DNA from: an archaeon | GTDB taxonomy: Archaea > Nanobdellota > Nanobdellia > Woesearchaeales > GCA-2686295 | Assembly: GCA_043817405.1 (NCBI GenBank) | Contig: JBDRGV010000036.1 | Span: 1-59,004 of the forward strand | Direction: 5' to 3' | DNA: 59,004 nucleotides | The notes under the pieces: generated by a model | What the model was told of the DNA's origin: nothing | The model's input: the letters and a program-made list of their open reading frames with translations, nothing else | The model's database searches: none | Shown here: positions 9,729 to 52,166 of the stretch, one piece after another | Layout: each line of letters opens with the position of its first letter | Numbering within the stretch: position 1 is the first letter of the stretch | Translations under genes and position numbers: made by a program

Positions 9729-9799
9729 TATGCCTCCGCAAACAAAAATCAGAAAAGATTTTTGGGCGTCGCCATTTTTTGCGGAAAAAGGCAAAATAT
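9729..9799. repeat. Copy of the tRNA-Thr 5' end (TATGCCTCCG) plus a palindromic hairpin insert with a GGGCGTCGCC core, directly upstream of tRNA-Thr
   Basis: TATGCCTCCG occurs at 9729-9738 and again at 9797-9806. Between the copies lie 58 nt with outer stem CCGCAAA/TTTGCGG, inner hairpin AAAAATC-AGAAAA-GATTTTT, and GGGCGTCGCC. This is related to the elements at 45941 and 51936. Confidence 0.6.
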
Positions 9800-10208: not shown

Positions 10209-10351
10209 TATTCACCTCTTTAATGCATAAAGATATTTCAATATAAAAATATTGTGAAAATTACAAAAACTATCAAAAGTTTTTGAAAATTCAAAAAATC
10301 ATGCTTTTTGAAAATACAGTATATCGTTTCCGCTATATCGAAACCGATACA

Positions 10352-14026: not shown

Positions 14027-15244
14027 ATGTTAAGAGATTATTTTAAAATTGCAGTAAACAACCTCATACATAGAAAAATGAGATCATGGCTCACCATGAT
14101 TGGAATATTCATAGGAATAGCTGCAGTTGTGGCTTTAATAAGTCTGGGACAGGGTATGCAACAGGCCGTTAATGCTCAATTTGGAAAAGTAGGAGCAAAT
14201 AGGATAATGGTTTCTCCAGGAGGGGCAATTGCAGGGCCAATGTCCGAAGGACTTGCAGCAGGATTACTTTATAATGATGATGTGGAAATCATTAAAAAAG
14301 TCAAAGGAGTAGAATTTGCCACAGGCACAATCGCAGATATGCCTGAAGTAAAATTCAATGATCAAACAAAGTACATCTCTGTGATGAGTTTTGATACTGA
14401 TACTGAAACCACGCGATTCATGGAACAGTTAGGATTTTTTGAGATAGAATTTGGAAGACAAATAAAACCAGGTGCAGAAAGCGAAGCAGTGGTGGGATAC
14501 TTGGTTGCAAAAAATTCATTTGACAAAAAAATAGGTGTAGGAAATAATATTTACATTGATGGAAAAAAATTCAGCGTTATAGGTGTTCAAGCAGATGCAG
14601 GTACTGGAATGCACGATGCAATCATAAGAATTCCAAAAGCTACAGCAGAAGAATTATTTGAAAAAGAAAATCCTTCCACAATATTTGTGAAAGTCAGAGA
14701 CGGATACGAGCCTCAAGCAGTTGCAGATGACATAAGTAAAGATCTTAGAAAAGAACATGATGTAGAAGAAGGCAAAGAAGATTTTGCAGTTGAACTGGCT
14801 TCAGATGTAATCGCATCATTCAATTCAATTTTAATTGCCATTCAAATTGTAATAATTGGAATCGCAGGAATAAGCATAGTTGTAGGAGCAGTTGGAATTA
14901 CGAACACCATGTACACCTCTGTCCTCGAAAGAACCAAAGAGATTGGCATAATGAAAGCAATAGGAGCCAGAAACTCAAGCATACTGAAAATTTTCTTAAT
15001 TGAATCCGGGCTGCTGGGTTTAGTGGGTGGAGCCATCGGAATATTAATAGGTATGGGCCTTGCAAAAGCAGTTGAGATTATAGCTGCACAAGCACTCGGA
15101 ACAGACATTCTCAAAGCATACTTCCCATGGTATTTAATCGTTGGAGCACTCTTATTCAGCTTCCTAATGGGCGCACTGGCCGGAACAACACCAGCAAAAC
15201 AGGCAAGCAAGATGAATCCAACGGATGCTTTACGTTACGAATGA
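14027..15244 (+). CDS. MacB-type ABC permease, second paralog
   Basis: MLRDYFKIAVNNLIHRKMRSWLTMIGIFIG and the FtsX-domain segment TNTMYTSVLERTKEIGIMKAIGA. It starts immediately after the previous stop. Confidence 0.9.
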   Translation: MLRDYFKIAVNNLIHRKMRSWLTMIGIFIGIAAVVALISLGQGMQQAVNAQFGKVGANRIMVSPGGAIAGPMSEGLAAGLLYNDDVEIIKKVKGVEFATGTIADMPEVKFNDQTKYISVMSFDTDTETTRFMEQLGFFEIEFGRQIKPGAESEAVVGYLVAKNSFDKKIGVGNNIYIDGKKFSVIGVQADAGTGMHDAIIRIPKATAEELFEKENPSTIFVKVRDGYEPQAVADDISKDLRKEHDVEEGKEDFAVELASDVIASFNSILIAIQIVIIGIAGISIVVGAVGITNTMYTSVLERTKEIGIMKAIGARNSSILKIFLIESGLLGLVGGAIGILIGMGLAKAVEIIAAQALGTDILKAYFPWYLIVGALLFSFLMGALAGTTPAKQASKMNPTDALRYE

Positions 15245-29927: not shown

Positions 29928-30605
29928 ATGAATAAAATATTGTTAGTTGTTCTGATTGTTTTAGGGGTTCTAGTTGTAAGTGTTGCAGCAATAGGAATAA
30001 TGTCAGCATCAAGGGTGAAGTTTGAAAAGCCCGCTGTTTACTTATATCCAGAATCAGATTCTATAATTGATGTAAAAATTGAAACAACCGGAGATATTAT
30101 TGTAAGCGAGCCAGATTATAACAATGGATGGAATGTGTTTGTAACCCGGGAAGGAGAGATTGAAGGAACATATGATTATTTGTTCTACGAAGTTGAATTT
30201 AAAAAGAAAATAGAGTTAGAAAATGAAGGATGGGTTGTTCCATACAATGAACTAGAAGAGTGGATGGACACAGTCTTGTTTGACCTGGGTTTAAATGAGA
30301 AAGAACAAAGTCAGTTCAAAGAATACTGGATAAACAGATTACCAAAAGCAAATTATTACGAGATAAAACTATTGAGTCAGGAATTCTTAAAAGAAGAAAT
30401 GGATTTAATAATAACTCCAGAGCCAGACACGATTTTAAGATTAAATTTCTACTTCAAAGCTTTGAAAGAAACGCTCAGCAGTGAAACTGCTGGCGCGCCC
30501 AAAGATGAACTTTTGAGCGAAACAAGCCTTGAAGAACCAAAAATAAACACTCCAAGCAGAGAAGGATTCACAGTTGTCGAATGGGGCGGAGTATTAGAAA
30601 AGTAA
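29928..30605 (+). CDS. N-terminally anchored extracytoplasmic hypothetical protein
   Basis: N-terminal TM ILLVVLIVLGVLVVSVAAIGI. I recognise no catalytic motif. Confidence 0.55.
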   Translation: MNKILLVVLIVLGVLVVSVAAIGIMSASRVKFEKPAVYLYPESDSIIDVKIETTGDIIVSEPDYNNGWNVFVTREGEIEGTYDYLFYEVEFKKKIELENEGWVVPYNELEEWMDTVLFDLGLNEKEQSQFKEYWINRLPKANYYEIKLLSQEFLKEEMDLIITPEPDTILRLNFYFKALKETLSSETAGAPKDELLSETSLEEPKINTPSREGFTVVEWGGVLEK

Positions 30606-36432: not shown

Positions 36433-36595
36433 GCATTACTAATTCTCTCGTGGTTTTAAAAGTTTTATTGAATAAAAGTAATAAATATAATAAAGTAGGT
36501 AGAAAATTATTTAAATAATAAATGTTCTTATACATTGTATGAAAGATATCAAAAATTGAAAATTTTTGGGATCTTCAAAATTTAAAGGTGAAATT

Positions 36596-36745
36596 TTGAA
36601 AGACATAAACATCGAACTAAATGATAAAACCCACTCACTGGCAAAGGTCTGTGCAGTTCTGAAAAATATTACAATGCGAGAGTATCTTCAGAAAGCCATA
36701 GAGAAAGCAGTGGAAAAAGATAAAGAAGTTCTTAAAAACTTATGA
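36596..36745 (+). CDS. Small ribbon-helix-helix protein, third member of the family seen at 1348 and 1487
   Basis: TTG start 5 nt after AAAGGTG. The product LKDINIELNDKTHSLAKVCAVLKNITMREYLQKAIEKAVEKDKEVLKNL is colinear with MTNINIELPDEIHK... It is below the ORF-track cutoff. Confidence 0.5.
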   Translation: MKDINIELNDKTHSLAKVCAVLKNITMREYLQKAIEKAVEKDKEVLKNL

Positions 36746-45814: not shown

Positions 45815-45940
45815 AAACGACGGTCACAACAAAATGCAAAGCATTTTGAGTTCCAAAAACCTTTCGGTTTTTGTTATTTCCGTCGAGACCATTGTGCTCC
45901 CTTCGGTCACAATGCAAAAGCATCAAAAGATAATCTGTAG
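45815..45940. other. Structured intergenic region with several hairpins and an internal direct repeat
   Basis: CGACGG (45818-45823) can pair with CCGTCG (45880-45885), enclosing hairpins AAAATGC-AAA-GCATTTT and CAAAAACC-TTTC-GGTTTTTG. CATTGTG-(11 nt)-CACAATG follows. The motif CGGTCACAA..AATGCAAAGCAT occurs twice. Confidence 0.3.
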
Positions 45941-46053
45941 AAGAAAATATGGGGACGCCGGGACGCTCAAAACGTTTTTCGTTTTGGCGCGCCAAAAATG
46001 TTTCATTTTTGAGCGTTTGAAAAATCCCTAGTCCAATATTTTCAAAGAAAATA
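45941..46053. repeat. Copy of the tRNA-Phe 3' end and flank (23 nt), a 52-nt GGCGCGCC-centred palindrome and a degenerate T-arm remnant, directly next to tRNA-Phe
   Basis: AAGAAAATATGGGGACGCCGGGA occurs at 45941-45963 and 46045-46067. The palindrome CGCTCAAAACGTTTTTCGTTTTGGCGCGCCAAAAATGTTTCATTTTTGAGCG is at 45964-46015. TTTGAAAAATCCC follows, then the hairpin ATATTTTC-AAA-GAAAATAT. Confidence 0.7.
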
Positions 46054-46127
46054 TGGGGACGCCGGGATTTGAACCCGGGACCACTAGATCTTCAGTCTAG
46101 TGCTCTCCCAGTCTGAGCTACGTCCCC
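46054..46127 (-). tRNA. tRNA-Phe (anticodon GAA)
   Basis: Hand fold of the reverse complement: GGGGACG TA GCTC AGACTGGGA GAGC A CTAGA CTGAAGA TCTAG TGGTC CCGGG TTCAAAT CCCGG CGTCCCC A. All stems are Watson-Crick, G37 is present, and CCA is not encoded. Confidence 0.95.
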
Positions 46128-51786: not shown

Positions 51787-51935
51787 CTGTAAACTCGTTA
51801 GTTACTTTATAAGGTATTACTATATAAATTTTTTTATTATAGAATGATAAATACCCTGACAAAAAAGATAGTATTACAATATTTAGAACAAAGGAATGTT
51901 TATTTTAAAACTATTGAGAAGAAAAAAAAGAAAAG

Positions 51936-52043
51936 TGGAGATGCTGAGACGCTCAAAAATCAAAGATTTTTGGCGCGCCAAAAATAAGAAATATTTTTGA
52001 GCGTTCGAAGAATCTCAAGTCACAATTTTTTCTAAAGAAAAAA
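51936..52043. repeat. Copy of the tRNA-Trp 3' end (14 nt, 1 mismatch), a 54-nt GGCGCGCC-centred palindrome and a degenerate T-arm remnant, directly next to tRNA-Trp
   Basis: TGGAGATGCTGAGA at 51936-51949 matches TGGGGATGCTGAGA at 52044-52057. The palindrome CGCTCAAAAATCAAAGATTTTTGGCGCGCCAAAAATAAGAAATATTTTTGAGCG is at 51950-52003. TTCGAAGAATCTC follows, then the hairpin ATTTTTTC-TAAA-GAAAAAAT. Confidence 0.7.
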
Positions 52044-52166
52044 TGGGGATGCTGAGATTCGAACTCAGATCGGCCGGTATCACCAAATAGTGAAAGTCAT
52101 TGGACGGAGTCCTCATCGCTCCATTTTTTGGAGCCGGCAATTCTGGCCAGGTTATACTACATCCCC
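52044..52166 (-). tRNA. tRNA-Trp (anticodon CCA) with a ~49-nt intron at the canonical 37/38 position
   Basis: Hand fold: acceptor GGGGATG/CATCCCC, anticodon stem GCCGG...CCGGC, loop CTCCAA|intron|A, T arm CTGAG-TTCGAAT-CTCAG, discriminator A. The intron (about 52079-52127) starts AAAATGGAGC, and TGGAGC pairs with the anticodon region GCTCCA. The D stem has one mismatch. Confidence 0.8.

What the first reader, a model, noticed from the sequence alone, without database searches (positions are those of the whole stretch)
51936..52057. The same element architecture at tRNA-Trp, with compensatory changes that track the host tRNA
TGGAGATGCTGAGA (51936-51949) copies the tRNA-Trp 3' end TGGGGATGCTGAGA (52044-52057) at a 108-nt offset. 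The corresponding offset at Phe is 104 nt.

The copy is followed by the 54-nt palindrome CGCTCAAAAATCAAAGATTTTTGGCGCGCCAAAAATAAGAAATATTTTTGAGCG. Its outer stem, GGCGCGCC centre and two inner A/T hairpins match the Phe-linked copy.

The 4 nt before and the 13 nt after the palindrome form GAGA ... TTCGAAGAA TCTC here, against GGGA ... TTTGAAAAA TCCC at Phe. This is a 4-bp stem with a 9-nt bulge whose sequence changes in a compensatory way between loci. Each version derives from the T-stem of its own tRNA.

An A/T hairpin ATTTTTTC-TAAA-GAAAAAAT again abuts the tRNA 3' end. Two independent loci with the same geometry argue for a specific mechanism or function rather than chance.
Basis: seen in the sequence. 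Interest (0 to 1): 0.78.

Follow-up and report, generated by a model that had tools for sequence, protein, structure and literature searches.

The report
Palindromic insertion in a tRNA-end decoy
Next to an intact tRNA-Trp gene of a tiny DPANN archaeon lies a partial extra copy of the tRNA's end, split by a 54-bp palindromic insertion element that also sits beside tRNA-Phe and in frame inside a protein gene, so it looks like selfish DNA rather than part of the tRNA.

Summary
I read the feature as two separate things, not one element.

(1) The 3' end of tRNA-Trp is locally triplicated in direct-inverted-direct order.

(2) A 54-bp palindrome, "pal", splits that second copy exactly between T-loop nucleotides 59 and 60.

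pal belongs to a family of 48-57-bp elements found only in Woesearchaeota/Nanoarchaeota-type contigs. Their ends and centre are invariant. Covariation supports two adjacent hairpins, not one long hairpin.

pal behaves as an insertion element:
- A third copy in this window adds 16 amino acids in frame to a conserved protein, with no target duplication.
- A relative carries pal in the T-loop of a complete tRNA-Gly gene.
- Orthologous tRNA loci in relatives lack it.

No Rfam family, integrase, transposase or reverse transcriptase was found. pal is not predicted to form a splicing (BHB) motif.

One relative has lost the proximal 3' end. It must use the distal copy across a 136-nt T-loop insert, which hints at a route to intron birth.

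The mobilising mechanism is unknown. Interest is moderate to high.

The parts
52044..52166 (-). Intact tRNA-Trp(CCA) gene with a 49-nt intron at the canonical 37/38 site (about 52079-52127). Its last 14 nt (52044-52057) are the proximal direct copy, D1.
   Evidence: Intron-aware ARAGORN. Rfam tRNA 39.9 bits. Sequence.
52025..52043 (-). T-rich trailer (T6CT3) folded back on itself: ATTTTTTC-TTTA-GAAAAAAT on the tRNA strand. It is a likely terminator and the first turn-around of the direct-inverted-direct arrangement.
   Evidence: Sequence. Folds.
52010..52032 (-). Inverted copy (I) of the tRNA-Trp 3' end plus trailer: GAAAAAATTGTGACTTGAGATTC against the expected GAAAAAATGGGGATGCTGAGATTC. It is perfect at both ends and decayed opposite the acceptor strand.
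   Evidence: Local alignment beats 2000/2000 shuffles.
52004..52009 (-). Copy of T-loop nt 54-59 (TTCGAA). This is the start of the distal direct copy, D2.
   Evidence: Sequence.
51950..52003 (.). pal: a 54-bp twin-hairpin palindromic insertion element sitting between the equivalents of T-loop nt 59 and 60.
   Evidence: Model R1 scores 73.7 bits. Covariation.
51926..51949 (-). Rest of D2: tRNA nt 60-73 (TCTCAGCATCTCCA, one C-to-T change) followed by a T-rich trailer copy (CTTTTCTTTT).
46054..46127 (-). Intact tRNA-Phe(GAA) gene. This is D1 of the sister module.
   Evidence: 72.5 bits.
45941..46053 (-). Sister module at tRNA-Phe:
- trailer hairpin plus inverted copy, 46022-46053
- T-loop copy TTCAAA, 46016-46021
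- pal, 45964-46015
- D2 plus trailer copy, 45941-45963
   Evidence: R1 scores 72.3 bits. The region is 100% identical in a second strain whose flanking CDS is diverged.
30472..30519 (.). Third pal copy (48 bp), inserted in frame in ORF 29928-30605. It adds 16 residues that all homologues lack.
   Evidence: R1 scores 37.8 bits, E 1e-7. Translation. Protein alignment A3.
45827..45873 (.). Weaker pal-like twin hairpin flanked by CGACGG/CCGTCG, downstream of the Phe module. It may be an older, decayed copy.
   Evidence: R1 scores 27.4 bits, E 9e-5.
9729..9799 (+). Apparent mirror-image arrangement upstream of tRNA-Thr: a copy of the tRNA 5' end (TATGCCTCCG), one A/T hairpin plus GGGCGTCGCC, an inverted copy (TTTGCGGAaaaaGGC), then the tRNA. 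It is a weak family member.
   Evidence: Sequence. R1 scores only 10.7 bits, E 3.8.

Best explanation
The 122-nt feature is a composite of two independent things.

(1) A direct-inverted-direct triplication of the 3' end of the tRNA-Trp gene.
- After the intact gene and its T-rich trailer comes a reverse-complement copy of the last ~25 nt.
- Then comes a second direct copy running from T-loop nt 54 through the discriminator into the trailer.
- The inverted copy and the second direct copy pair with each other.
- The layout fits two fold-back or template-switch events during replication. That origin is inferred, not shown.

(2) A 54-bp palindromic insertion element, pal, lodged in the second copy exactly between the equivalents of T-loop nt 59 and 60.
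- pal belongs to a family of 48-57-bp elements in Woesearchaeota/Nanoarchaeota-type genomes.
- Each is two adjacent hairpins of about 10-12 bp: CGC-(T)-CAAAAA-nn-loop-nn-TTTTTG-GCG, followed by its mirror image.
- The ends and centre are invariant. The inner stems covary.
- It inserts without a detectable target duplication, just 3' of RAA, in or next to hairpin-forming DNA. The T-loop coding sequence TTCRAA^T is its recurrent target.

tRNA-Trp is intact and is followed directly by a T-run. The module is therefore not needed to make the tRNA and is most likely selfish or neutral DNA.

How pal moves is not shown. I infer mobilisation in trans through single-stranded hairpin DNA (REP/RAYT- or IS200/IS605-like), or copying by template switching.

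One evolutionary by-product is seen. Where the proximal 3' end decays, the distal copy becomes the only usable 3' exon and the intervening DNA becomes a T-loop intron.
For: pal as a distinct family:
- Apart from chance matches in two bacterial coding sequences, the pattern scans of species genomes and metagenomes found pal only in AT-rich DPANN-type contigs (those with a record title are called Woesearchaeota or Nanobdellati archaeon).
- It is absent from viral contigs.
- It matches no Rfam family.

Fold:
- Twin-hairpin fold: 160/160 cells paired, 4 pairs and 11 cells with changes on both sides, covariation score 0.193 against 0.066 in shuffles (0/500).
- Single long hairpin: every variable position breaks a pair.
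- Compensated changes at basal pairs occur in L022 (G2A with C28T) and in L046 (centre C-to-T with terminal G-to-A).

pal is an insertion and is not tRNA-specific:
- The copy at 30472-30519 adds exactly 16 codons that are absent from all 9 aligned homologues. The listed homologues are mostly 199-221 aa against 225 aa in the window. The reading frame and alignment length are restored by removing the 48 nt with no duplication.
- It also lies in plain intergenic DNA (L008, L015) and inside a ~300-bp repeat present at least 5 times in one MAG.

T-loop 59/60 as target:
- Five modules share the junction TTCRAA|pal|T: window Trp, window Phe, L022 Phe, L006 Ser, L009 Tyr.
- L046 has pal at 59/60 of a complete tRNA-Gly(CCC) gene with no duplicated end.
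- With pal removed, 8 of 10 sites fold as DNA into a hairpin that encloses or abuts the insertion point.

The triplication is separate from pal:
- The inverted copies beat 2000/2000 shuffles at window Phe, window Trp and L022 Phe.
- tRNA-Trp genes in L029 and L030 have a distal 3'-end repeat at +98 and +87 nt without pal.

Dispensability:
- Orthologous tRNA-Trp loci in L022, L023, L025 and L027 lack any module. So do the tRNA-Phe loci in L023, L046 and L029.

Intron by-product:
- In L025 the proximal 3' end is decayed (ACAACGGTTTCGCCCCA).
- Removing the 136-nt insert gives a canonical tRNA-Phe.
- The minimum-energy fold places T-stem, 3-nt bulge (AG|U60), a 4-bp helix (UUCA/UGAA) and the 5' splice site in a bulge-helix-bulge-like layout.
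- That insert contains a pal homologue (42.1 bits, E 7e-9).
Against: - No transposase, integrase or reverse transcriptase lies in the 59-kb window (40 ORFs scanned). No autonomous partner is identified.
- Copy number can only be sampled: 3 strong copies in 59 kb, and a strict pattern found only 1-5 per genome in two species genomes.
- All five clear direct-inverted-direct hairpins carry pal. The two pal-less duplications lack a significant inverted copy. pal insertion and the inverted copy may therefore be mechanistically linked rather than independent.
- Signs of constraint or concerted evolution, which a purely neutral scar would not show:
  - In L022 the inverted and distal copies both follow a change at tRNA position 69, while keeping mismatches shared with the window.
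  - In strain L019 the whole intergenic block is identical while the neighbouring CDS differs at 13 of ~220 aligned columns.
- The insertion-site preference rests on only 10 sites.
Confidence: 0.5

Rival explanations
1. The module is a functional cis-acting 3'-trailer structure of the pre-tRNA or its DNA. The inverted and distal copies would form a tRNA 'top-half' (acceptor/T-arm) mimic or terminator hairpin, with pal as two extra hairpins. It would act in termination, 3' processing, stability or regulation.
For: - The architecture is kept between the window and L022 (81% GlyRS identity) although other intergenic sequence is unalignable.
- There is a compensatory change in the inverted copy and matching change in the distal copy.
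- A second strain has zero substitutions across 367 nt of tRNA plus module plus downstream hairpins, against 13 in the adjacent ~220 aligned CDS columns.
- The hairpin formed by the inverted and distal copies is followed by a T-run at every locus. In L006 the only T-run (T9) lies after the module, so the module must be co-transcribed there.
Against: - The same tRNAs lack it in several close relatives.
- In the window a T6CT3 or T4CT3 run directly follows the tRNA.
- pal has exact two-fold symmetry and no G-U pairs in 160 cells. This fits DNA, or both strands, better than a one-strand RNA.
- pal also occurs in a coding sequence and in unrelated intergenic sites.
Confidence: 0.2
2. pal is a mobile archaeal tRNA intron removed by the splicing endonuclease. 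The module would be an intron-bearing spare 3' exon, so mature tRNA could be made either from the proximal end or by splicing to the distal copy.
For: - Position 59/60 in the T-arm is the structural equivalent of the canonical 37/38 site. It is a documented non-canonical intron position (PMC4090602).
- The pal 3' end, UGAG+CG|U60, is complementary to T-loop UUCA. This is the layout seen in L025.
- pal-like twin hairpins lie inside genuine interruptions: the L025 T-loop insert (42.1 bits), the L031 37/38 intron (19.4 bits) and L046 tRNA-Gly (70.8 bits).
- Distal copies are always intact from nt 60 onwards.
- DPANN endonucleases with the L3 loop are linked to more disrupted tRNA genes (PMC5829648).
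Against: - Forcing the bulge-helix-bulge geometry costs 9.7 (Phe) and 12.0 (Trp) kcal/mol relative to pal folding on itself.
- Covariation supports pairing of pal's terminal bases, which the splicing motif needs unpaired.
- tRNA-Trp and tRNA-Phe are intact without splicing.
- The Trp and L006 distal copies carry substitutions.
- The L046 tRNA-Gly has two A.C mismatches in its T-stem and may be a pseudogene.
- The pal-less distal copies in L029 and L030 have no sequence complementary to the T-loop at the right place (read by eye from the sequence).
Confidence: 0.15
3. The module is the scar or a miniature derivative of an integrase-driven element that integrates at the T-loop-to-3'-end att site of tRNA genes. 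The repeats would be attL/attR and pal a recombinase-binding palindrome.
For: - Direct repeats of the tRNA 3' part starting in the T-loop are the classic mark of integration (PMC9897764, PMC3293823).
- A ~7-kb island with toxin-antitoxin, WYL and Bro-N genes lies downstream of tRNA-Phe in L025/L026.
- pal consists of four copies of a 9-10-bp half-site in alternating orientation, as a multimeric DNA-binding protein might require.
Against: - The insert between the repeats is only ~90 nt and encodes nothing.
- The repeats include host-specific trailer sequence and differ for each tRNA, so they were copied from the target rather than carried in.
- Integration does not explain the inverted copy.
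- No integrase lies in the window. None was listed by Pfam in the syntenic loci.
- pal is absent from viral contigs.
- pal inserts in a coding sequence with no repeats.
Confidence: 0.1

Closest known systems
REP/REPIN elements (mobilised by RAYT) and IS200/IS605-derived palindrome-associated elements
   Same: - Tiny non-coding elements made of paired, inverted, imperfect palindromes that fold as hairpins.
- Several copies per genome, with conserved ends and variable covarying stems.
- Insertion without target duplication next to a short motif, which fits single-strand hairpin transposition (REPINs: PMC3116915).
   Different: - pal is shorter (48-57 bp).
- It begins CGCTC rather than the GTAG or CGTC tags.
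- It is in an archaeon, at low copy number.
- One copy lies inside a coding sequence.
- No Y1/HUH transposase was found in the window.
Rickettsia palindromic elements (RPEs)
   Same: - A palindromic repeat in a reduced, host-dependent genome.
- It inserts in frame into protein-coding genes and adds a tolerated peptide (PMC10969869). Compare the 16-residue insertion at 30472-30519.
   Different: - RPEs are ~150 bp and bacterial.
- There is no evident sequence relationship.
- A preference for the tRNA T-loop is not, to my knowledge, a feature of RPEs.
Non-canonical archaeal tRNA introns (bulge-helix-bulge type, e.g. at 59/60) and 'intron transposition'
   Same: - Same position (59/60).
- Related sequences occur at different positions and in different tRNAs (37/38 in L031, the T-loop in L025 and L046). 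This matches what is described for Thermoproteales, where the mechanism is unknown (PMC4090602).
   Different: - At the window loci pal interrupts only a partial gene copy.
- It is not predicted to form the splicing motif.
- It also inserts outside tRNA genes.
tRNA gene fragments left by integrating mobile elements (attL/attR)
   Same: - One complete tRNA gene plus a displaced copy of its 3' part as a direct repeat (PMC9897764, PMC3293823).
   Different: - Known cases flank 1.8-23 kb of element DNA carrying a recombinase.
- Here the interval is ~90 nt, contains an inverted copy of the same segment, and has no recombinase.
Template-switch (fold-back) mutations and tandem inversion duplications
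   Same: - Direct-inverted-direct order.
- Perfect small hairpins with 3-4-nt loops at both turn-arounds (TATTTTC-TTT-GAAAATA; GGGATTT-TTC-AAATCCC).
- Template switching is known to create hairpins and apparent compensatory changes in one step (PMC8794818).
   Different: - The same junction positions recur at four or five different tRNA genes in several lineages.
- The copies stay matched to the tRNA over long divergence.
- Random replication errors do not predict either point.

Membership tests
Archaeal bulge-helix-bulge tRNA intron | Interrupts the mature tRNA sequence | tested here: not met
   tRNA-Trp and tRNA-Phe are complete without it. pal splits only a downstream partial copy. The feature is met in relatives L046 (tRNA-Gly) and L025 (tRNA-Phe).
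Archaeal bulge-helix-bulge tRNA intron | Two 3-nt bulges separated by a 4-bp helix at the exon-intron junctions | tested here: not met
   The constrained fold is 9.7-12.0 kcal/mol worse than pal's own fold. Covariation supports paired termini. A relaxed motif is predicted in L025, but non-pal sequence builds it.
Archaeal bulge-helix-bulge tRNA intron | Excised and exons ligated at the RNA level | not testable with these tools
   No transcript data are available.
Integrative-element att duplication | Direct repeat of the tRNA 3' part on both sides of the insert | tested here: met
   14-29-nt repeats at offsets of 100-112 nt.
Integrative-element att duplication | Insert is a mobile element carrying a recombinase (kb scale) | tested here: not met
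   The insert is ~90 nt of non-coding DNA. No integrase Pfam hit among 40 window ORFs.
MITE | Terminal inverted repeats | tested here: met
   The whole element is a palindrome: CGCTCAAAAA...TTTTTGAGCG.
MITE | Target-site duplication flanking the element | tested here: not met
   The flanks of 10 copies show no duplication. The empty site reconstructed from the protein alignment needs none.
MITE | Multiple copies and a related autonomous element | tested here: inconclusive
   There are 3 strong and 3-4 weak copies in 59 kb, and at least 5 copies of a pal-bearing repeat in JACQMS01. No autonomous element was seen. Whole genomes were not available.
REP/REPIN or IS200/IS605-derived palindromic element | Pair of inverted imperfect palindromes forming hairpins | tested here: met
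   The twin-hairpin fold has full pairing and covariation.
REP/REPIN or IS200/IS605-derived palindromic element | Conserved GTAG/CGTC end tag and a cognate Y1 (HUH) transposase in the genome | tested here: not met
   The ends are CGCTC/GAGCG. No Y1_Tnp hit in the window. The rest of the genome was not testable.
REP/REPIN or IS200/IS605-derived palindromic element | Insertion without duplication 3' of a short specific sequence | tested here: inconclusive
   All 10 sites end in RAA^ (TTCAAA, TTCGAA, AAGAAA, GAGAAA, TAAAAA). The sample is small and the genome is A-rich.
Rickettsia-palindromic-element-like selfish DNA | Palindromic repeat inserted in frame in a conserved ORF | tested here: met
   A 48-nt insertion adds 16 aa absent from 9 homologues.
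Any curated RNA family (Rfam 15) | Covariance-model match | tested here: not met
   Only tRNA reaches threshold. All other matches score far below the gathering scores.

The most novel reading that the evidence does not exclude
pal and the direct-inverted-direct modules may be snapshots of how non-canonical archaeal tRNA introns are born and moved. A fold-back triplication of a tRNA end supplies a spare exon plus an antisense strand that builds a bulge-helix-bulge-like helix with the T-loop. A mobile twin-hairpin element seeds the same 59/60 site. When the proximal end decays, as in L025, the interval becomes an obligatory intron. pal would then be a new kind of mobile, DNA-level proto-intron that can also enter protein genes.
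Probability: 0.15. Interest if true: 0.85.

Novelty: new variant of a known kind. Interest (0 to 1): 0.62.

Why it matters
- It would add a very small palindromic insertion element to the few mobile elements known in DPANN archaea. The element prefers the tRNA T-loop sequence and is tolerated in frame in a protein.
- It explains why tRNA finders miss or mis-call genes in these genomes. ARAGORN forced a false 3' end on the L025 tRNA-Phe and missed the L046 tRNA-Gly.
- The set of orthologous loci covers four states: no module, intact gene plus decoy, decayed proximal end with an obligatory T-loop insert, and pal inside a complete tRNA gene. The reviews I read say the mechanism of archaeal tRNA intron gain and transposition is still unknown (PMC4090602). 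These loci make that question testable.

Tried and rejected
- Rfam at gathering and lax thresholds on both modules and on the JACQMS repeat: nothing but tRNA.
- C/D-box or H/ACA guide RNA: no conserved boxes or ACA, and the internal loops are not conserved between copies (by eye).
- pal as a bulge-helix-bulge intron: rejected on energy and covariation.
- One long 54-nt hairpin: rejected by covariation.
- Integrase, transposase, reverse transcriptase or Cas1 in the window: none in 40 ORFs.
- Viral origin: the strict pal pattern gave 0 hits. The 16-mer core gave 13 hits, none with the twin-hairpin context.
- 'Aromatic tRNAs only' (Phe, Trp, Tyr): rejected. By manual parse the L006 host is tRNA-Ser(GCU) with a 29/30 intron, and L046 is tRNA-Gly.
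- Module as a degenerate whole tRNA copy lacking nt 8-48: rejected. The inverted copy extends into T-loop nt 57-60 and into the trailer.
- Island in L025 flanked by a further tRNA-Phe 3' repeat: none within 2 mismatches.
- The matches in L001, L010-L013 and L016 are chance hits in bacterial coding sequence.
- I could not run second scans of the genome or metagenome collections, so looser pal patterns were not searched at scale.
Full report
**Check of the observation.**
- The 14-mer at 51936-51949 copies the tRNA-Trp 3' end at 52044-52057 with one mismatch, 108 nt away. These are the only two hits in the window, against 0.01 expected.
- The Phe pair is identical at a 104-nt offset.
- The palindromes at 51950-52003 and 45964-46015 are the only two matches to their core and to their ends. 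No shuffle reached this.
- tRNA-Trp is real. Default ARAGORN and Rfam gathering mode miss it because of a 49-nt intron. Intron-aware ARAGORN and Rfam with lax filters find it at 52044-52166 on the minus strand, 39.9 bits.
- The genome is ~35% G+C. Its glycyl-tRNA synthetase is closest to proteins that sources name Woesearchaeota or Nanoarchaeota.

**Anatomy on the tRNA strand.**
- Trp: tRNA ...CTGAG TTCGAAT CTCAG CATCCCC A | TTTTTTC TTTA GAAAAAAT TGTGACTT GAGATTC | TTCGAA | pal | TCTCAGCATCTCCA CTTTTC...
- Phe...TTCAAAT CCCGG CGTCCCC A | TATTTTC TTT GAAAATA TTGGACTA GGGATTT | TTCAAA | pal | TCCCGGCGTCCCCA TATTTTCTT....
- The stretch between the tRNA and TTCRAA is a reverse-complement copy of the tRNA's own last ~25 nt including the trailer. 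It is perfect at both ends and decayed opposite the acceptor strand.
- That inverted copy beats 2000/2000 shuffles at window Phe, window Trp and L022 Phe, 9/2000 at L006 and 39/2000 at L009.
- The arrangement is therefore direct (the gene), inverted, direct. pal splits the second direct copy exactly between the equivalents of T-loop nt 59 and 60.

**What pal is.**
- Pattern scans found real copies in two GTDB species genomes (a Woesearchaeota MAG, JACQMS01, five times, and Nanobdellati NIOZ-UU113). JGI metagenome contigs gave L008, L009, L015 and re-finds of NIOZ-UU113 and of the window organism. Viral contigs gave none.
- Eight distinct copies align with invariant CGCTCAAAA(A), GGCGCGCC and (T)TTTTGAGCG and variable inner arms.
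- Counting pairs for two adjacent hairpins gives 160/160 cells paired, four pairs and 11 cells changed on both sides, and a covariation score of 0.193 against 0.066 in shuffles (0/500). Slid controls collapse to 32-63% paired.
- For one long hairpin, every variable position breaks a pair and covariation is zero.
- Two rare changes in the conserved base pairs are compensated in the twin-hairpin register only: L022 G2A with C28T, and L046 centre C-to-T with terminal G-to-A.
- There are no G-U pairs and the conserved parts are exactly two-fold symmetric. I read this as weak evidence for a DNA-level or both-strand constraint.
- No Rfam family matches.

**pal is an insertion element and is not tied to tRNA genes.** I built a covariance model from the eight copies and searched all held sequence. 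It recovered further members.
- A third copy in the window at 30472-30519 scores 37.8 bits (E 1e-7). It keeps the ends and centre but has quite different, still complementary arms.
- This copy lies in ORF 29928-30605 and is 48 nt long. The protein has a 16-residue block that none of nine aligned homologues has. The listed homologues are mostly 199-221 aa against 225 aa here.
- Removing exactly the 48 nt restores ...LKEK TSLEEP..., colinear with the family. No target duplication is needed.
- In L046, a 71%-GlyRS relative, a 70.8-bit copy sits between TTCAAA and TCCCGG of a complete tRNA-Gly(CCC) gene that has no duplicated end. ARAGORN calls the gene only after pal is removed. Its T-stem has two A.C mismatches, so it may be a pseudogene.
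- L008 and L015 carry pal in ordinary intergenic DNA. In JACQMS01 it is part of a ~300-bp repeat present at least five times, often at contig ends.
- All ten sites have RAA immediately 5' of pal. With pal removed, eight of ten fold, with DNA parameters, into a hairpin that encloses or abuts the insertion point.

**The duplication exists without pal and the module is dispensable.** Syntenic loci of relatives were fetched through glycyl-tRNA synthetase.

tRNA-Trp:
- No module in L022 (81% GlyRS identity), L023, L025 or L027.
- L029 and L030 have a distal 3'-end repeat at +98 and +87 nt with unrelated intervening hairpins and no pal.

tRNA-Phe:
- L022 has the full module with a mutated pal.
- L023 and L046 have none; they carry a D-loop intron instead.
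- L029 has only a canonical intron.
- L031 has two introns. The 37/38 intron contains a weak pal-like twin hairpin (19.4 bits).

Overall:
- Seven of 18 ARAGORN-called tRNA genes in the held DPANN loci have a distal repeat 86-98 nt downstream. Two of those loci were fetched because of pal, so this sample is biased.

**Signs of constraint or concerted evolution.**
- The L022 tRNA-Phe differs from the window's at position 69 (GTTCCCA versus GTCCCCA). Both its distal copy and its inverted copy (GAAC versus GGAC) carry the matching change. They also share the same mismatches and 2-nt loop with the window's inverted copy.
- The window and L029 Trp modules share the decayed inverted 8-mer GTGACTTG.
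- A second strain (L019) is identical over 367 nt of tRNA-Phe, module and downstream hairpins. The adjacent CDS differs at 13 of ~220 aligned columns.
- These points keep a functional reading alive.

**Is pal an intron?**
- Position 59/60 is the T-arm equivalent of the canonical 37/38 site and is a known non-canonical intron site (PMC4090602).
- The pal 3' end, UGAG-CG|U, could pair with T-loop UUCA.
- Forcing that bulge-helix-bulge geometry costs 9.7 (Phe) and 12.0 (Trp) kcal/mol against pal's own fold. The covariation also requires pal's termini to be paired.
- L025 differs. Its proximal 3' end has decayed (ACAACGGTTTCGCCCCA), and only removal of a 136-nt insert yields a normal tRNA-Phe.
- The L025 minimum-energy fold has T-stem, bulge AG|U60, 4-bp helix UUCA/UGAA and the 5' site in the opposite loop. 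This is a relaxed bulge-helix-bulge built from an inverted-copy segment.
- The L025 insert contains a pal homologue (42.1 bits).
- DPANN endonucleases with the L3 loop have been linked to more disrupted tRNA genes (PMC5829648).

**Other rivals.**
- Integrase scar: direct repeats starting in the T-loop are typical of integration (PMC9897764, PMC3293823), and L025 has an island next to tRNA-Phe.
- Against that reading: the interval is ~90 nt, the repeats include each host's own trailer, integration does not explain the inverted copy, and no integrase was found.
- Chance is excluded.

**Verdict.**
- The finding is real and specific.
- It is best read as two layers. The first is a fold-back-type triplication of the tRNA 3' end; template switching is known to make such hairpins (PMC8794818). 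The second is a small palindromic insertion element with a taste for T-loop-like hairpins.
- In behaviour, pal is closest to REP/REPIN-type elements (PMC3116915) and to the in-frame Rickettsia palindromic elements (PMC10969869).
- Shown: the anatomy, the family, the fold, the insertion in a coding sequence, presence/absence among relatives, and the L025 state.
- Inferred: the template-switch origin, the hairpin-targeting rule, and mobilisation in trans.
- Unknown: the enzyme, whether any copy is removed from RNA, and whether the inverted copy precedes or accompanies pal.

Noticed in passing
window 30472-30519 (ORF 29928-30605): A diverged pal copy lies in frame in a conserved DPANN protein of unknown function. 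It adds 16 residues (TLSSETAGAPKDELLS) that no homologue has.
   Followed up: yes
window 45820-45935: Downstream of the Phe module lies a second, weaker twin hairpin flanked by CGACGG/CCGTCG, plus a hairpin CATTGTG..CACAATG. The motif TTGTGACCG occurs twice and resembles the decayed inverted copies of the tRNA end. These may be older layers of the same process. The region is 100% identical in strain L019.
   Followed up: partly
window 9729-9799: Upstream of tRNA-Thr there is a copy of the tRNA 5' end (TATGCCTCCG), one A/T hairpin followed by GGGCGTCGCC, and an inverted copy of the 5' end. It looks like a mirror image of the 3' modules.
   Followed up: partly
window 52079-52127: The tRNA-Trp intron (49 nt) carries box-like motifs (GAUGAG, AAUGAC, GUGAU). 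These recall the C/D-box guide RNA found in tRNA-Trp introns of other archaea. No Rfam C/D family reached threshold.
   Followed up: no
L046 227-348: A complete tRNA-Gly(CCC) gene is interrupted at T-loop 59/60 by pal. It has A1-U72 and two A.C mismatches in the T-stem. The gene is absent from the same intergenic space in L023.
   Followed up: partly
L025/L026 11832-12045 and 12086-19100: tRNA-Phe has a decayed proximal 3' end and a 136-nt T-loop insert, and ARAGORN mis-calls it using the decayed end. It is followed by a ~7-kb island with ParE-like toxins, WYL, Bro-N and APH genes, which holds further pal-like hits at 14915 and 15602.
   Followed up: partly
L031 6826-6990 and 6737-6793: tRNA-Phe has two introns: 48 nt at 37/38 and 32 nt at about 53/54. 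ARAGORN misses it. A 36-bit pal-like element lies just upstream of the gene.
   Followed up: partly
L023 11814-11908; L046 3446-3538: tRNA-Phe has a ~21-nt intron in the D-loop. ARAGORN calls it tRNA-His with an anticodon-loop intron.
   Followed up: no
L006 3618-3732: By manual parse the host tRNA of this pal module is tRNA-Ser(GCU), with an intron at 29/30 that contains a single pal-type hairpin (CAGAAAAAGA-TGAG-TCTTTTTTTGGCG). ARAGORN calls it Gln.
   Followed up: partly
L002-L005, L007 (JACQMS01): A ~300-bp repeat carrying pal occurs at least five times, often at contig ends. In L004 it is flanked by a 10-bp direct repeat, AATAAAGAAA. Next to pal it has a 3'-end-like 14-mer (GTTCGCGTAATACCA) and its partial complement, like the tRNA modules.
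   Followed up: partly
window 36549-36602 and 10264-10314: AT-only twin hairpins in intergenic DNA score 26-32 bits with the pal model but lack the CGCTC and GGCGCGCC signatures. They may be decayed copies or ordinary bidirectional terminators.
   Followed up: no
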